This document shows, piece after piece, positions 4,139-23,476 of a stretch of 64,000 bases of DNA. Numbering within the stretch: the stretch's first letter is position 1; each line of letters opens with the position of its first letter. Source of the stretch: a virus; the IMG/VR virus record IMGVR_UViG_3300005841_000035, positions 7,487 through 71,486 of that record; one strand, written 5' to 3'. The position numbers were made by a program, and so were the translations under genes. Under the pieces are notes generated by a model. That model saw only the letters and a list, made by a program, of their open reading frames with translations. It did no database searches and was not told the DNA's origin.

Positions 4139-4630
4139 TCACTTGATGCGCAGCGTTAGGTCGCGCGCCGTGGAACCCAGCAGCGCCGTGATGGATTGCG
4201 CGAGGTTCGCCGCGACGGAGCCGCCCAGGACGTAGCCGCCCGTGATATTGACCGGCGTCCCCCGCAGGCGGTCGCGCAGCGTAACGTGGCAACGGTCCTG
4301 CCCGCGGCTAAACCGCAGGATGATGTCGCATGAGGCGCCGTGAAAAAATACCTGCCCGACGTGCAGTGCCAAAGATTTTTCGTCGCCGTCGTTCGGGAAC
4401 AACTGGCGGACGGTCTGACCTTCCGTCAAGCGGATGGGACCTTGTGCGCGCTTCTCGATTTTCGAGCCCACGCGCCGAACGCTCTTGGCGTCCGGGTAAA
4501 GTTCCCTCACCTTGGCCTCGAGGGCGGCGTATGTTTCGCGGGCACCCGCCCCAGGCGAGCCGCAGGGCACTTCGACAGTTACAGGTCCACCGTCCACCAT
4601 GAACTGTCCCAACATCACATTGTTATTCAT
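4139..4630 (-). CDS. Hypothetical protein
   Basis: Start MNNNVMLG directly after the promoter at 4637-4668. Confidence 0.6.
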   Translation of the reverse strand: MNNNVMLGQFMVDGGPVTVEVPCGSPGAGARETYAALEAKVRELYPDAKSVRRVGSKIEKRAQGPIRLTEGQTVRQLFPNDGDEKSLALHVGQVFFHGASCDIILRFSRGQDRCHVTLRDRLRGTPVNITGGYVLGGSVAANLAQSITALLGSTARDLTLRIK

Positions 4631-18741: not shown

Positions 18742-19056
18742 ATGAGCATGGTTGATGATGCCTGCCCCCGATGCGGGGCGCCGGTCTGCGCTTGCCAGTG
18801 CAAGCGGGACCCGCGGGTTTATGAGACCCCCTGGAACGGTGAGCCGATGCGCTTCGAACTGTCGGAGCACGTCAGGGCCTTCACCGAAAAAATGATGGGC
18901 CACCTTCGTCGCGAGTGGGCGTATCGCCGGCTCGCGGGGGACCTGCTGCACCAACTGAAATCGCTGGAGAACTTCGTGGACCCATCTACGCGCAACCTGC
19001 TCAAGGACGCGCGTGAGGTGTGGGAGAAGCAATTCGAAGACATCGCAAAGTTATGA
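18742..19056 (+). CDS. Hypothetical protein with N-terminal Cys cluster
   Basis: CPRCGAPVCACQC. Confidence 0.55.
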   Translation: MSMVDDACPRCGAPVCACQCKRDPRVYETPWNGEPMRFELSEHVRAFTEKMMGHLRREWAYRRLAGDLLHQLKSLENFVDPSTRNLLKDAREVWEKQFEDIAKL

Positions 19057-19277
19057 TAGCCATCATCGCAATCGCCGCTTACTTTGTTTCGGTCATCACG
19101 TTGCTGTGCTACGTGAAATACCTGGACAGCCGCGTAACCAAGTTACAGTTCGAACTTTTCGAATACGCCCGGCAAGAATACGTCTCGCACAGGTTCACCA
19201 GCGTGTGGTCGCAAATTGTCCGCACACAGGACGACGTGAAAAAACTTCAAGCGAAGCGGGGAGGCAAAAAGAAGTGA
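19053..19277 (+). CDS. Small membrane protein
   Basis: N-terminal transmembrane helix. Confidence 0.55.
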   Translation: MIAIIAIAAYFVSVITLLCYVKYLDSRVTKLQFELFEYARQEYVSHRFTSVWSQIVRTQDDVKKLQAKRGGKKK

Positions 19278-19966
19278 ACGTCGTCGCCTACTACCGCGTC
19301 AGCACTCGCGAGCAGGAAGATAAGACCGGGCTCGAGCGTCAGCAGGACACCGTCGAGAAGTTCGCCGCCTCCAAAGGCATGACCATCGTCCGCTCGTTTT
19401 CTGAAGTCCAGTCCGGCGGCGCGGATATCGAGGACCGCACCATGCTGCTTTCCTTGCTCGACGAGGACGGCGTCAGCGGCATCGTGGTCGAGCGCATGGA
19501 CCGTCTCGCGCGCGACCTCATGGCACAGGAAATTTTTCTTCGGAGCGCGACCACTAAATGTATCCAGGTGTTCACCGCCGACTCCGGCCAGGAGATGACC
19601 AACGCGGATGACCCAACGCGCGTGATGTTGCGCCAAGTCATGGGCGCGCTGGCCCAGTGGGAAAAAGCCGTCATCGTAAAAAAACTTCAGGACGGTCGCC
19701 GGCGGACCGCTGAACGGACGGGCAAGCCATGCGGGGGTCCGCCACGGTTCGGCTTCCATCCAGACATTCGGACGCGTGGGCATCAGCGGGACATCATCCA
19801 CTGCGTTAAGAAGATGGTGGACGAGGGGTATTCCTACGCGCGCATCGCCCGCCACTTGCAGGCGAACGGCATCTCCCCGCCAACCGGCAAAATCTGGCAT
19901 CGCTCAACGGTTTACAAAATTTCCAAAGTCAATCTTGACAATCCGCCGGCAGGGCACACTTCTTAG
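19274..19966 (+). CDS. Serine recombinase (resolvase/invertase family) with C-terminal DNA-binding domain
   Basis: AYYRVST..Q..GLERQ, EVQSGG, DRLARD; GTG start coupled to the upstream stop. Confidence 0.92.
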   Translation: MNVVAYYRVSTREQEDKTGLERQQDTVEKFAASKGMTIVRSFSEVQSGGADIEDRTMLLSLLDEDGVSGIVVERMDRLARDLMAQEIFLRSATTKCIQVFTADSGQEMTNADDPTRVMLRQVMGALAQWEKAVIVKKLQDGRRRTAERTGKPCGGPPRFGFHPDIRTRGHQRDIIHCVKKMVDEGYSYARIARHLQANGISPPTGKIWHRSTVYKISKVNLDNPPAGHTS

Positions 19967-19971
19967 GTGAT

Positions 19972-20688
19972 ATGAGCGGAACTCTCGTTTATCAAGATGC
20001 GGTCGGCGTGGACAACTTAATCCTCAGCCTCGCGGGCGGTGACTATGTCGCCAGCCTGGGCAACTTGTCGTGGCAGAAGCTGCGCGTCGGTATTCGCGCG
20101 ACCATCTCGGCGGAAGCGGACATCTCTGGCAGCCCGGCACCGACGCTTGCCGTCGGACTGTGCAGCGGCACGACTTACCCGTTCATCTCCGGCGGATGCA
20201 CGCACTTCGTCGGCGCGAAAACCAACGTCAGTGTTTTTGACTACATCCCGTTCGGCACCGGAACCCCGACGTGGATACGCGCCGGCACTAGCAACAACTC
20301 TTTTCAGGCGTGCAAGAAAATCGGCGGGACGGTGACGGCGGTTAGTTCGTCTTCGGTCGGCCCTGGCTTCGCCGAAGAACATTCGCAGCCTAAGAGCGTC
20401 ATCCTGGTAGACATCACCAAGGGGTCTCCGAACTGGACCATCGACTTCTTCATCTTCAACTCGGTCGCGCCCGACAGTTCGTGGCCCGACGTTTCTGAGG
20501 CCACATTCAATTCGTTGATGGTCGCGGACACTCCGTCGTTGACCTATCACAGCCTTTACACCGGATATTCCGTTGCGGTGAATGAGGCAACCAACGGAAC
20601 CATCAACGCAGTGAACGTCTCGTGGAACCGCGACGCGAATCTGGTTAAAGTCGAGGACCTCGCGGTTGCGAAGTTCCTGCTAGACTGA
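19972..20688 (+). CDS. Stand-alone beta-rich domain paralogous to the collagen-fibre tip domains
   Basis: WQKLRVGI..GLCSGTT..VNEATNGTINAVNVSW matches the C-termini of 37949-39052 and 39054-40349; own promoter at 19935-19963. Confidence 0.7.
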   Translation: MSGTLVYQDAVGVDNLILSLAGGDYVASLGNLSWQKLRVGIRATISAEADISGSPAPTLAVGLCSGTTYPFISGGCTHFVGAKTNVSVFDYIPFGTGTPTWIRAGTSNNSFQACKKIGGTVTAVSSSSVGPGFAEEHSQPKSVILVDITKGSPNWTIDFFIFNSVAPDSSWPDVSEATFNSLMVADTPSLTYHSLYTGYSVAVNEATNGTINAVNVSWNRDANLVKVEDLAVAKFLLD

Positions 20689-20698
20689 TATGAAAATT

Positions 20699-21002
20699 TC
20701 TTGGCCTCCCAGAAAACGGAGCGTGCATAACGTTAAAAGCCAGGATGCCCCGCCTCCGGGTCGGGCAACAAGTCCAACCGTCGCGACGGTTGGCCGGGTG
20801 GACATCCGGTTAGCTACCGACCACCCGAAAAATTTTGACAGGACGGAACGTTTTGGCCGAGCACCTTCGGGTCCGGCAAGCGGCGTTTTAGATTCCGGTC
20901 TGTCAGCGGGGAAATGGCGACACATGGGCACAGCCCTGAAGGGAAACCCCGTCGCCCGCAGAGTCAGCGAAATAGGCTATCATAAACACGCCGCTTACTT
21001 TC
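20699..21002 (+). ncRNA. Candidate large structured RNA / cis-regulatory element upstream of TerL
   Basis: Several adjoining stems, a cUUCGg tetraloop, a 20-nt palindrome and a 9-bp long-range pairing (20878-20886 with 20988-20996). Confidence 0.6.
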
Positions 21003-22934
21003 ATGGCACTTGCAGAAACGCACCCCGTAAAGGGGTTGCTGCGGGAGTCCGCGCGATTGATTCACAGCGGCGACATCTTTGCTGCCGCGAAGTTGGTTCG
21101 CGCCTGGGCGGCGCAGAATAACCCCGAGATTGCCAAGCAGTCGGTTGAGACCAAGCGCAAGGCGTTTGAGATGCTCACCCTTCTGCTGCATTGGGCGTTG
21201 AACAACGGTGCGACCGAAGAGGCCGCACAACTTCTCTGGACCCCCAACCAATTCGACCCTCGACCGCACAACACGCAGCGCGTATGGTCCGCCTTCGACG
21301 AGCGGGACTTCATTTTGTTGATGGGCGCCGGCAAGCAGTCAAAATCATTCTCGATGGCCATCCGGCTTTTTCTGGAGTGGGTCCGTGACCCGGAGTATAC
21401 GTCGATTCGCGTGCTGGGTCCGAGCGAAGACCATCTGGAGCAGAACCTTTTTTCGCACCTCGTCACACTCCATCGGGAGTCAGCCATACCACTGCCGGGT
21501 GAGATTGGAAAATTATTCATCGGCCTCGACGCGCGGTCCAAGCGCGGCTCGATTACCGGCGTGGTGATTCCCCAGGGGAAAAAAGCCGCGGGCCGATTGC
21601 AAGGTGTCGCGCGTTTTCGGCGGAAGGTAACTCATCCGGTGTTCGGTGAGACGTCGCGGCTGTTCGTGTTCGTGGACGAAATTTCGAATCTCCCCAAGGG
21701 CTTGTGGCACGACATCGACAACTTGCTGTCCAACACCTCAAAGCACGGCGGGCTGAAGGTGGCCGGCGCGTTCAACCCGTCGGACCAGAACGGCGACGTC
21801 GGTGTCCGCGTGGAGCCGCCCTTCGGCTGGGCGGATTTTGACCCGGACCTGCACTTCGAATGGATGTCAACGCGTGGCTGGTGGGTCGTCCGCCTGGACG
21901 CGATGCAGTCTGAAAACATCAAGCAGAAGCGCGAGGTCTATCCCGGCATGCAGACCTACGAGGGCATGCAGCAAATCATCGCGAACGCCGGCGGGCTCGA
22001 TTCGCCCGGTTACTGGACGATGGTGCGCGGATGCTTCCCGCCGTTGGGAATGGTTCTCGCGGTCATCCCTTCGGGGCTGACCACAACGTGGAAGGCCGAA
22101 CCGATTTGGTATGACACGCCCGCGCCCTGCGGTGGCGTTGACTTGGCGCTGGAGGGCGGCGACACCTGCGAATTCGCGCACGGGCTTTTTGGCCGCGCGA
22201 GCGGAGTGAAGATGCCCCCGAGCTTGGAATTCCCTGGCGGGCAGACCGTGTGGTTCTACGACCGCAACGGGCACAAGGCACCGCGGCATGTATTGCTGGC
22301 GCAGAAAATTTTTCACATCCCGAAGGGGGACACGACCGCCGTCGGTGACGCGGTGATTCGGCTCGCGCGCGAGCTGCACGTCAAACCGGAATACCTCGCG
22401 GTGGACCGCACCGGTAACGGACAGGGCGTGTTCGACTACATGAAGACCAAGGGTTGGCGCTGTCACGGCGTCAACTTTTACGAGGGCGCCAGCGAGACGC
22501 GCATCATGGCCGAAGACGAAGACACGGCCAAGGAACTTTATGACCGCGTGAACAGCGAGCTTTGGTTCGCCGTCAAGCGGTGGCTGGAGTTTCGGTTCCT
22601 TTACGTGGCGCTGGGCATGGAGACCGCGGACCTGACGAGCGAGCTGACGGACCGCTTCTTCCGGATGCTGGGCAAGAAGTCGCACGTTGAGTCAAAGCGC
22701 GATTGGAAGTCCCGGCACGCCGGAAAGTCGCCGAACCTCGCGGACGCCTTTACCCTGCTGGTCCACGCCGCACGCAAGGGCAGCGGGTTCATCCCGAGCA
22801 TGGCCGGCGAGGATTCGATTGACCCGGTGAGCCACGAGTCAACCGAATGGGACCCGCACGCGAAAGACATCGGGTGCGACCGGACGAACCGATTCGAAGA
22901 CCTGGACACGGCCTTGGACGACCACGAATTGTGA
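21003..22934 (+). CDS. terL: Terminase large subunit
   Basis: Deviant Walker A (MGAGKQSKS), Walker B VFVDE, nuclease motifs GVDLALEGGD, AVDRTGNG, KSPNLADA. Confidence 0.88.
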   Translation: MALAETHPVKGLLRESARLIHSGDIFAAAKLVRAWAAQNNPEIAKQSVETKRKAFEMLTLLLHWALNNGATEEAAQLLWTPNQFDPRPHNTQRVWSAFDERDFILLMGAGKQSKSFSMAIRLFLEWVRDPEYTSIRVLGPSEDHLEQNLFSHLVTLHRESAIPLPGEIGKLFIGLDARSKRGSITGVVIPQGKKAAGRLQGVARFRRKVTHPVFGETSRLFVFVDEISNLPKGLWHDIDNLLSNTSKHGGLKVAGAFNPSDQNGDVGVRVEPPFGWADFDPDLHFEWMSTRGWWVVRLDAMQSENIKQKREVYPGMQTYEGMQQIIANAGGLDSPGYWTMVRGCFPPLGMVLAVIPSGLTTTWKAEPIWYDTPAPCGGVDLALEGGDTCEFAHGLFGRASGVKMPPSLEFPGGQTVWFYDRNGHKAPRHVLLAQKIFHIPKGDTTAVGDAVIRLARELHVKPEYLAVDRTGNGQGVFDYMKTKGWRCHGVNFYEGASETRIMAEDEDTAKELYDRVNSELWFAVKRWLEFRFLYVALGMETADLTSELTDRFFRMLGKKSHVESKRDWKSRHAGKSPNLADAFTLLVHAARKGSGFIPSMAGEDSIDPVSHESTEWDPHAKDIGCDRTNRFEDLDTALDDHEL

Positions 22935-23240: not shown

Positions 23241-23455
23241 AAGCCGTTCGTCGGGTCGTGGTGGCCGCGGCCACCGGCTCGAAGGTGTTCGTAGGCCCTG
23301 AGATAGCCGGCAAACGGTTGGACGCCTGCCACCGGTGCCCGAATTTTAAGCCCAAGACTCGGCAGTGCGGCCTGTGTTTCTGTTTTGTGGACGCAAAATC
23401 CAAGCTCGCCACAGAGTCTTGTCCCGACCACAGATGGCCCTTGACAAACGTGTAA
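23207..23455 (+). CDS. Cys-rich metal-binding protein (DUF6171-like)
   Basis: RLDACHRCP..CGLCFCFV.AK..CP..RW; probable GTG start. Confidence 0.65.
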   Translation: MQKIKAVKTALKAVRRVVVAAATGSKVFVGPEIAGKRLDACHRCPNFKPKTRQCGLCFCFVDAKSKLATESCPDHRWPLTNV

Positions 23456-23476
23456 ATTCCAACACTTCTAGGTAAG

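What the first reader, a model, noticed from the sequence alone, without database searches (positions are those of the whole stretch)
20699..21002. ~300-nt pseudoknotted structured RNA abutting the terminase large-subunit start codon
Seen: in an otherwise gene-dense genome, this gap folds almost end to end on the + strand. The elements are a 3-way junction (20699-705/20739-745 enclosing two small hairpins); a hairpin 20746-767; a perfect 20-nt palindrome CCAACCGTCGCGACGGTTGG (20774-793; as a hairpin its CGCG loop is self-complementary); a stem 20795-801/20821-827; a 13-bp stem with one mismatch (20836-848/20893-905) enclosing a cUUCGg tetraloop hairpin; and a multibranch 20906-959. The loop segment AAGCGGCGT (20878-886) is exactly complementary to ACGCCGCTT (20988-996), 6 nt before the TerL ATG, giving a long-range pseudoknot. 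G-U pairs and the UUCG loop favour RNA over DNA. Established: phi29 pRNA oligomerises via loop-loop contacts on the packaging motor. Inference: this is an undescribed packaging-associated ncRNA or a translational switch for TerL. I do not recognise it as tRNA, tmRNA, RNase P or a group I/II intron.
Basis: partly seen in the sequence, partly recalled or inferred. Interest (0 to 1): 0.85.

Follow-up and report, generated by a model that had tools for sequence, protein, structure and literature searches.

The report
Conserved pseudoknotted RNA before phage terminase
The gene-free stretch in front of this soil phage's DNA-packaging gene encodes a real folded RNA with a long-range knot, kept by compensating mutations in related phages and absent from RNA catalogues, but only its last 170 bases are conserved and its job is still unknown.

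Summary
The gap 20689-21002 folds better than shuffles on the + strand (z -3.4). Its 3' part, 20832-20996, is a conserved RNA. In 14 distinct sequences from related uncultured phages, 96.7% of cells pair and 19 of 47 pairs show changes on both sides, against 0-4 in slid controls.

No frame is conserved, and substitutions show no third-position bias, unlike TerL. Rfam 15 and ARAGORN find nothing.

The "~300-nt RNA" is composite. The 5' 143 nt is an accessory module. In relatives it is replaced by a tRNA-Met or other modules, or it is absent.

A start codon follows the pseudoknot by 5-12 nt in 14 of 14 sequences. It opens four unrelated kinds of ORF: TerL, two endonucleases and a small membrane protein.

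My best reading, at moderate confidence, is a processed leader module that defines or protects the 5' end and initiation region of the packaging mRNA. A stable trans-acting RNA is not excluded. A phi29 pRNA-like role has no support.

This scan found the same family earlier on other DNA (e1-5917380, e1-5353720).

The parts
20689..20831 (+). Accessory 5' RNA module. It holds a three-way junction (20699-20745), a hairpin (20746-20767), a palindromic hairpin (20774-20793) and a hairpin (20795-20827, with inner stem 20807-20819).
   Evidence: z -3.47. Pairing with some compensatory changes in window, L001, L002 and L003. Replaced by a tRNA-Met in L021. Absent in contigs of runs X2 and X7. Different modules stand there in L113 and L121. 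The junction motif occurs only in the window's close clade.
20832..20996 (+). Conserved core RNA, a new family (model R1).
   Evidence: cmsearch scores of 97-223 bits in all phages with TerL at least 75% identical. One copy in each of 5 genome records. 96.7% of cells paired and 19 of 47 pairs with changes on both sides.
20836..20905 (+). H1, the 13-bp stem 20836-20848/20893-20905 (A20843-G20898 unpaired). It encloses J1 (CGUUUU, invariant), hairpin H2 (20856-20877) and the 5' strand of the pseudoknot.
   Evidence: 7 of 11 pairs compensatory. The 13th pair covaries.
20878..20886 (+). Pseudoknot 5' strand (AAGCGGCGU).
   Evidence: Pairs with 20988-20996 in 14 of 14 sequences. 5 of 9 pairs show changes on both sides.
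20906..20959 (+). H3 multibranch domain. Stems are 20906-908/20957-959 and 20916-921/20951-956, with two variable inner hairpins (20926-936, 20941-950).
   Evidence: Outer stems 100% or 97.6% paired, 3 compensatory pairs. Inner hairpins are replaced by a single hairpin in L101, L113 and L121.
20962..20978 (+). H4 hairpin AGUC/GGCU with a 9-nt loop.
   Evidence: Paired in 14 of 14. One position changes U-G to C-G in 3 sequences. There is no change on both sides, so support is weak.
20988..20996 (+). Pseudoknot 3' strand (ACGCCGCUU).
20997..21005 (+). U-rich tail ACUUUC and the TerL start codon.
   Evidence: A tail of 5-12 nt followed by ATG or GTG in 14 of 14 sequences.
21003..22934 (+). Large terminase (TerL), 643 aa.
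   Evidence: No Pfam, PHROG or NCBIfam hit. The AlphaFold model (pLDDT 83.6) matches Sf6 gp2, D6E TerL and T4 gp17 at E 1e-14 to 1e-10.
19972..20688 (+). Upstream 238-aa ORF, variable cargo in the same slot.
   Evidence: No family hit. Relatives have a 91-aa ORF there, or nothing between the recombinase and the RNA.
19013..19966 (+). Serine recombinase ORF. It is syntenic with the RNA in all lineages seen.
   Evidence: PF00239 at 2e-22, phrog_95. Present upstream in L021, L113 and L120.

Best explanation
The gap encodes a genuine structured RNA, read from the + strand together with TerL.

Its conserved unit is a core of about 165 nt (20832-20996). The parts are a 13-bp stem H1, an enclosed hairpin, a multibranch domain, a small hairpin and a 9-bp pseudoknot. 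The pseudoknot ties the loop inside H1 to the 3' end.

The core sits in a variable 'RNA and cargo slot' between a serine recombinase gene and TerL. In relatives this slot also holds tRNA-Met genes, other folded RNA modules, homing endonuclease genes and small ORFs.

Inferred mechanism:
1. The slot is transcribed as part of the packaging-gene message.
2. Module boundaries are cut by the host's tRNA-maturing or RNase E-type enzymes. The evidence is the CCA followed by AUUU directly before H1 in most lineages.
3. The compact pseudoknotted core stays as the 5' structure of the downstream message. Its 3' strand lies 5-12 nt from the first start codon.
4. There it protects the new 5' end and sets or limits translation initiation of whatever ORF comes first, which is TerL in this window.

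Shown: the fold, the strand, conservation, modularity and the fixed spacing to a start codon. Inferred: transcription, processing, and the effect on stability or translation.
For: Fold and strand:
-.
- G-U pairs occur on the + strand only (UG 4, GU 7, GU 4, GU 9 at four pairs).

Not coding:
- The homologous peptide changes frame between lineages.
- Variable columns fall 11/15/12 by codon position. The TerL control gives 8/3/59.

Conservation:
- The core is at least as conserved as TerL DNA: 93% against 88% for L001, and 86% against 84% for L002.

Modularity:
-.

Link to tRNA processing:
- A tRNA-Met ends directly at the core in L021 and lies upstream of the RNA in L101 and L083.
- 9 of 14 cores are preceded by CCA then (A)UUU.
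- A distant relative, L042 (TerL 53% identical), has 3 tRNAs and then about 320 nt of non-coding sequence ending CACCA-AUUUUAA-AUG of TerL.

Link to the start codon:
- ATG or GTG lies 5-12 nt after the pseudoknot in 14 of 14 sequences.
- In 9 of 14 it opens a recognisable ORF of four unrelated kinds: TerL in 3, an EndoVII-like ORF in 1, an HNH/EndoVII-like ORF in 2, and a 56-aa membrane ORF in 3.

Host translation signals:
- Most genes of this phage have weak or no Shine-Dalgarno sequence and an A/U-rich stretch before the ATG. A U-rich tail after a structure is therefore the local norm for initiation.
Against: - There are no RNA data. No listed sequencing run is on record as RNA, so transcription, ends and processing are untested.
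- In 5 of 14 sequences (L101, L097, L121, L127, L126) the start codon after the pseudoknot opens only a 34- or 48-codon ORF of doubtful reality. TerL lies 113-230 nt further on, behind another module or ORF. In contigs of runs X2, X7 and X8 about 100-115 nt are inserted between 20992 and 20998. Adjacency to TerL itself is therefore not required.
- The shared start codon may simply be inherited from the ancestral TerL start. The lineages are closely related, so they are not independent trials.
- No promoter-like or terminator-like site was found on the + strand near the RNA.
- None of the accessory modules scores as a tRNA in Rfam at E up to 5.
- A core this elaborate seems more than a protective hairpin needs.
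Confidence: 0.45

Rival explanations
1. A stable, trans-acting non-coding RNA. It would be released from the tRNA-slot transcript like a tRNA, with its own function such as host takeover, translation, defence evasion or assembly. It would lie next to TerL only because that slot is highly expressed late in infection.
For: - It occupies the slot where relatives keep tRNAs.
- A tRNA-Met abuts it.
- It is an autonomous unit flanked on both sides by insertion hot spots.
- In L101, L121 and the contigs of X2, X7 and X8 it is separated from TerL.
- GNRA-type loops and invariant junction bases suggest a compact tertiary fold.
Against: - No terminator or other 3'-end signal follows it.
- A start codon sits 5-12 nt after it in 14 of 14 sequences.
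- No target complementarity was identified.
- There are no expression data.
Confidence: 0.3
2. A transcription-level element at the head of the late or packaging operon. It could be a processive antitermination RNA (put- or EAR-like) or a pseudoknot-dependent attenuator that uses the GC-rich long-range helix followed by the U-rich tail.
For: - In L113, L112 and L120 the RNA starts right after the recombinase gene, where a conserved TTGACA...CACTTCTTAGGTG motif lies.
- A GC-rich 9-bp helix is followed by a U-rich tail in all 14 sequences.
Against: - The promoter motif is not enriched in the window, and it overlaps coding sequence.
- The U tract is short and interrupted.
- There is no match to any Rfam antitermination family.
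- An ORF and a tRNA lie between the putative promoter and the RNA in several lineages.
Confidence: 0.08
3. A DNA-level site that merely looks like a fold, either a pac or cos packaging signal or a recombinase target.
For: - It lies just upstream of TerL, where packaging sites often lie (general knowledge).
- There is a 20-bp perfect palindrome beside a serine recombinase gene.
Against: - Compensatory changes keep pairing while the sequence changes.
- G-U pairs work only on the + strand.
- The palindrome is imperfect in L001. It is missing in L021, L113 and the X2 and X7 contigs, which keep the recombinase or the core.
Confidence: 0.03
4. The 143-aa ORF 20690-21121 (or the 83-aa ORF on the - strand) is a real small protein, for example a small terminase, and the fold is incidental.
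For: - A frame without stops runs through the core in 12 of 14 sequences.
- An ATG stands at the 5' edge of the gap in the window, L001 and L113.
- Distant relatives have ORFs of 111-184 aa directly upstream of TerL.
Against: - The homologous peptide jumps between frames in L101, L113, L120 and L121, and there are stops in L043 and L112.
- There is no third-position bias, and non-synonymous changes exceed synonymous ones in all 15 pairs, against the TerL control.
- The 5' half of the ORF is absent or replaced in relatives.
- There is no Pfam or PHROG hit.
- The upstream ORFs of distant relatives are unrelated cargo, a methyltransferase and an epimerase.
Confidence: 0.02

Closest known systems
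Small stable RNAs of the phage T4 tRNA gene cluster (species 1 and 2, rnaC/rnaD). Recalled from my own knowledge; no paper was read for it.
   Same: Phage-encoded folded RNAs of unknown function. They lie among or next to tRNA genes and are thought to be cut out by tRNA-processing enzymes.
   Different: There is no sequence or structure relation that I could test. This RNA has a long-range pseudoknot and abuts a start codon. Processing is only inferred here.
GOLLD (RF01998) and ROOL (RF03087), large ornate RNAs of phages and prophages near tRNAs.
   Same: Large, complex, covariation-supported phage RNAs of unknown function, often beside tRNA genes.
   Different: No Rfam match at E up to 10. 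The core is far smaller (about 165 nt), and the family is confined to one narrow phage clade.
tRNA punctuation and t-elements, tRNA-like structures that define mRNA ends. Examples are human mitochondria (recalled) and plant mitochondrial t-elements (PMC1920247, abstract seen in the search listing).
   Same: Folded RNA modules, some of them true tRNAs, sit directly before coding regions, so that processing would leave very short leaders. In L121 and L042 a CCA end lies 4-7 nt before the TerL ATG.
   Different: The core is not tRNA-like (ARAGORN and the Rfam tRNA model are negative). Cleavage has not been shown.
Pseudoknotted translational operators and structured leaders: the T4 gene 32 leader (mentioned in PMC10690425, passages read), and E. 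coli rpsO and rpsA (recalled).
   Same: A pseudoknot or structured leader lies immediately upstream of a start codon that lacks a strong Shine-Dalgarno sequence.
   Different: Those are 30-100 nt and have a known protein partner. This core is about 165 nt with a multibranch domain, and no partner or regulation is known.
phi29 pRNA, the packaging RNA.
   Same: A phage RNA of about 170 nt.
   Different: No Rfam match. The proposed self-complementary loop lies in a dispensable module. The pseudoknot is intramolecular. This phage has a canonical two-domain TerL.
Candidate structured RNAs upstream of a putative large terminase in the IMG/VR catalogue of Fremin et al. 2023 (PMC10690425, passages read).
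   Same: The catalogue was made from the same collection, and the paper reports 14 candidates consistently upstream of a putative large terminase domain.
   Different: I cannot tell whether this family is among them. No function is assigned there either.

Membership tests
Any Rfam 15 family, including RNase P, tmRNA, group I/II introns, riboswitches, pRNA, GOLLD and ROOL | A match to the family covariance model. | tested here: not met
   0 matches at E up to 10 in window 19500-22500. In 8 related loci only true tRNAs and chance-level hits were found.
tRNA / tmRNA | A cloverleaf or tRNA-like domain detectable by ARAGORN. | tested here: not met
   0 genes in the window. tRNA-Met genes lie beside the RNA, not inside it, in L021, L101 and L083.
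phi29-type pRNA | Conserved intermolecular loop-loop complementarity that builds a ring. | tested here: not met
   The only self-complementary loop (CGCG, 20782-85) is in the accessory module. That module is absent in L021, L113, L121 and the X2 and X7 contigs.
phi29-type pRNA | It works with a small packaging ATPase that has no nuclease domain. | tested here: not met
   The adjacent 643-aa protein matches full-length TerLs, including their nuclease domains.
Cis-regulatory leader (riboswitch or translational operator) | It lies in the 5' leader, on the same strand, with part of the structure next to the initiation region. | tested here: met
   The pseudoknot's 3' strand lies 5-12 nt before an ATG or GTG in 14 of 14 sequences.
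Cis-regulatory leader (riboswitch or translational operator) | Alternative conformations, or a ligand or protein that changes expression. | not testable with these tools
   No covarying alternative pairing was seen in the all-against-all column scan. Experiments are needed.
Protein-coding gene | A conserved reading frame and a codon-position substitution bias. | tested here: not met
   TerL control.
Group I intron | It interrupts a gene that is complete only after splicing, and it has a P3-P7 core. | tested here: not met
   TerL aligns from residue 1 with relatives that lack the RNA. There is no Rfam Intron_gpI match.
Stable RNA processed with tRNAs (T4 rnaC/rnaD type) | Co-transcription with tRNAs and cleavage by RNase P, Z or E. 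| not testable with these tools
   Only positional evidence: a tRNA-Met abuts the core in L021, and CCA comes before the core in 9 of 14 sequences.

The most novel reading that the evidence does not exclude
The core is a trans-acting RNA subunit of the packaging machinery. It would stand in for the small terminase, which could not be identified in this phage, or act as a pRNA-like adaptor. This would make the clade the first tailed phages with a canonical TerL nuclease-ATPase that need an RNA cofactor.
Probability: 0.05. Interest if true: 0.95.

Novelty: new variant of a known kind. Interest (0 to 1): 0.6.

Why it matters
Phage genomes hold many folded RNAs that nobody can name. This one is unusually well supported: it has a long-range pseudoknot proven by compensatory changes. 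It also sits at a fixed distance from the first start codon of the packaging genes, whichever gene that is.

If it acts in cis, it would be a portable, Shine-Dalgarno-independent initiation or stability module for hosts that use weak ribosome-binding sites. It would also give a concrete example of tRNA-style punctuation of a phage message.

If it acts in trans, it adds a member to the small set of complex phage RNAs (GOLLD, ROOL, T4 stable RNAs) whose functions are open.

Either way, the model and the alignment allow annotation of this slot in soil phage genomes, and they point to mutants that can be made directly.

Tried and rejected
**Known families.** Rfam was searched at E up to 10 on the window region and on 8 related loci, and ARAGORN was run. 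Nothing was found beyond true tRNAs.

**Solved-structure sequence search.** A search with TerL gave only chance-level hits.

**Wider distribution.**
- Five DNA-pattern scans of viral contigs for the core and one for the 5' junction module were run.
- One scan of genome contigs was run.
- Every hit outside the known clade was checked by eye or by the model and was a chance match.
- No bacterial genome copy was found, so there is no host clue.

**Distant relatives.** The covariance model with filters off found nothing below E 0.4 in 13 distant TerL relatives.

**A second pseudoknot.** This was a lead from e1-5353720. An all-against-all column scan gave no further stacked covarying pairs. A GGG/CCC pairing (20909-11 with 20948-50) is possible but invariant.

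**A closing helix.** UAUGAAA (20689-95) pairs with UUUCAUG (20999-21005) in the minimum-energy fold. It is not conserved in L002, L113 or the lineages without the 5' module, so I rejected it.

**Promoter and terminator scans.** Nothing was found on the + strand. The motif searches were not above chance.

**Small terminase.** None was recognised among the 20 window ORFs scanned against PHROGs. This is uninformative, because TerL itself is not recognised either.

**Expression.** No RNA holder was listed. The four runs laid were DNA contigs.

**Literature.** Searches found no description of this RNA. The supplementary tables of PMC10690425, which could list it, were closed.

Full report
**What is there**

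The window is part of a 71,486-nt virus record that is 98% complete. A 314-nt gap (20689-21002) lies between a 238-aa ORF (19972-20688) and a 643-aa ORF (21003-22934).

The 643-aa protein has no Pfam, PHROG or NCBIfam hit. Its AlphaFold model (pLDDT 83.6) matches the large terminases of Sf6, D6E, T4 and HK97 at Foldseek E 1e-14 to 1e-7. A language-model look-up also points to terminase clusters.

A serine recombinase gene lies upstream.

**Is the fold more than chance?**

| Stretch | Strand | z-score | Shuffles as good |
|---|---|---|---|
| 20689-21005 (whole gap) | + | -3.38 | 0 of 100 |
| 20689-21005 (whole gap) | - | -1.77 | 5 of 100 |
| 20689-20831 (5' 143 nt) | + | -3.47 | 0 of 200 |
| 20832-21002 (3' 171 nt) | + | -2.05 | 7 of 200 |

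The value for the 3' part is an underestimate, because nested folding cannot hold both crossing helices.

**Relatives**

- TerL searches gave 19 viral and 30 metagenome loci. A second search with the 75%-identical TerL P0002 gave 31 more.
- BLAST and a covariance model (R1) find the RNA in every locus whose TerL is at least 75% identical to the window's and whose upstream DNA is present: 27 matches in 56 sources.
- The model finds nothing in relatives at 47-58% identity, even with filters off in 13 of them.
- There is one copy in each of 5 genome records.
- After removing duplicates, 14 distinct core sequences remain.

**Covariation**

On the first 8 sequences, aligned by MAFFT:
- 96.2% of cells pair.
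- 10 pairs show changes on both sides, against 0-2 in slid controls and 0-1 of 500 shuffles.

On the 14 sequences:
- 96.7% of cells pair.
- 19 of 47 pairs and 47 cells show changes on both sides, against 0-4 pairs in slid controls and 0 of 500 shuffles.
- This alignment was fitted to the nested helices. The pseudoknot helix was left out of the model, yet it pairs in 14 of 14 sequences.
- In the pseudoknot, 5 of 9 pairs change on both sides: A-U to G-C, A-U to U-A, G-C to A-U, C-G to G-C and U-A to C-G.
- H1 has 7 compensatory pairs of 11, and its 13th pair (20836/20905) switches U-A to C-G.
- G-U pairs occur at several positions on the + strand, so the folded molecule is the + strand transcript.

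**Not a protein**

- The open frame of the 143-aa ORF is not kept. The homologous peptide moves between frames in L101, L113, L120 and L121, and L043 and L112 have stops.
- Among the six indel-free sequences, variable columns fall 11/15/12 on codon positions 1/2/3, and non-synonymous changes outnumber synonymous ones in all 15 pairs.
- TerL shows 8/3/59 and 19/6/72.
- The ORFs that distant relatives carry directly upstream of TerL are unrelated cargo, a methyltransferase and an epimerase.

**The RNA is modular**

Only 20832-20996 is shared by all lineages. The 5' 143 nt has four folded elements, some with compensatory changes in the four sequences that have them. In relatives it fares as follows:
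- In L002 and L003 it is extended by several hundred nucleotides of further hairpins.
- In L021 it is replaced by a tRNA-Met whose CCA end abuts the core.
- In L101, L113 and L121 it is replaced by other modules.
- In contigs of runs X2 and X7 it is absent, and the upstream ORF is joined to the core by 7 nt.

Nine of 14 cores are preceded by CCA and then (A)UUU. A distant relative, L042, has three tRNAs and about 320 nt of non-coding DNA ending CACCA-AUUUUAA-ATG of TerL.

The 3' side is also an insertion hot spot:
- An EndoVII gene in L021 and an HNH/EndoVII-like gene in L003 and L043.
- A conserved 56-62-aa membrane ORF in L113, L112, L120 and L101.
- A 113-nt folded module flanked by a 7-nt direct repeat in L121.
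- Inserts of about 100-115 nt in contigs of X2, X7 and X8.

**Relation to the start codon**

An ATG or GTG follows the pseudoknot by 5-12 nt in 14 of 14 sequences, and by 5-7 nt in 13. In 9 of 14 it opens a recognisable ORF of four unrelated kinds. In the other 5 the ORF is short and doubtful, and TerL lies further on.

This phage mostly lacks Shine-Dalgarno sequences and has A/U-rich stretches before its start codons. The U-rich tail after the knot therefore looks like its normal initiation context.

**Interpretation**

The data show a new, well-supported RNA family in the tRNA and cargo slot ahead of TerL. I favour a processed leader module that caps the 5' end of the packaging message and sets its initiation region (confidence about 0.45).

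A stable trans-acting RNA released like a tRNA is the main rival (0.3). The two readings are not exclusive.

Readings at the transcription level, the DNA-site level and the protein level are weak.

The phi29 pRNA analogy fails every feature I could test, but a packaging role cannot be excluded without experiments.

**Known literature and earlier notes**

- Rfam 15 has no match.
- Four full-text searches found no description.
- Fremin et al. 2023 (PMC10690425, passages read) report 14 unnamed candidates upstream of a putative large terminase in IMG/VR.
- This scan had already met the same family on other DNA (e1-5917380, e1-5353720) and similar modular RNA arrays before terminase genes.
- I re-derived the fold and its modularity independently here. 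I could not confirm a second pseudoknot or a tRNA origin of the modules.

Noticed in passing
L021:1444-1863; L003:2508-3023; L043 from about 207: Free-standing EndoVII/HNH-type endonuclease genes are inserted exactly between the RNA and TerL in two independent ways. They take over the start-codon position after the pseudoknot, and the first TerL codons differ there (MLPE... instead of MALAE...).
   Followed up: partly
protein P0095 (TerL relative, 981 aa): A TerL homologue carries PF05203 (intein homing-endonuclease hint domain). It is probably an intein-containing terminase.
   Followed up: no
L113, L112 and L120 at about 1340-1510; L101 at about 4350-4540: A conserved 56-62-aa hydrophobic ORF (M..LDNLKLWFLL...) lies between the RNA and TerL in the P0002 clade. 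It is absent from the window.
   Followed up: no
L121:1383-1500: A 113-nt folded module ending CCCACCA lies directly before the TerL ATG. It is flanked by the 7-nt direct repeat TTTATGG, which looks like an insertion with target duplication.
   Followed up: no
window 19935-19971 and 23452-23476: A CACTTCT(T)AGGT motif lies directly before the ATG of the 238-aa ORF. A near copy lies before the portal gene. The first is conserved in L021, L113 and L121 at the recombinase 3' end, together with TTGACA. It is not enriched in the window as a whole.
   Followed up: partly
window, 32 gene starts: Most genes have weak or no Shine-Dalgarno complementarity and have A/U-rich sequence (often TAAnTT) before the ATG. 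This suggests a host with little Shine-Dalgarno use and much translational coupling.
   Followed up: partly
window 21003-22934: TerL is invisible to Pfam, PHROGs and NCBIfam, but it has more than 700 homologues in metagenomes and a clear terminase fold. It has an extra all-helical N-terminal region of about 100 residues.
   Followed up: partly
L042:1688-2149; L019:2128-2203: Distant TerL relatives keep one to three tRNA genes in the same slot upstream of TerL. The tRNA-Met of L042 is almost identical to that of L021 although their TerLs are only about 53% identical to the window's.
   Followed up: partly
window 20689-20695 with 20999-21005: UAUGAAA can pair with UUUCAUG. This closes the whole gap and covers the TerL start codon in the minimum-energy fold. 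It is not conserved in relatives.
   Followed up: yes
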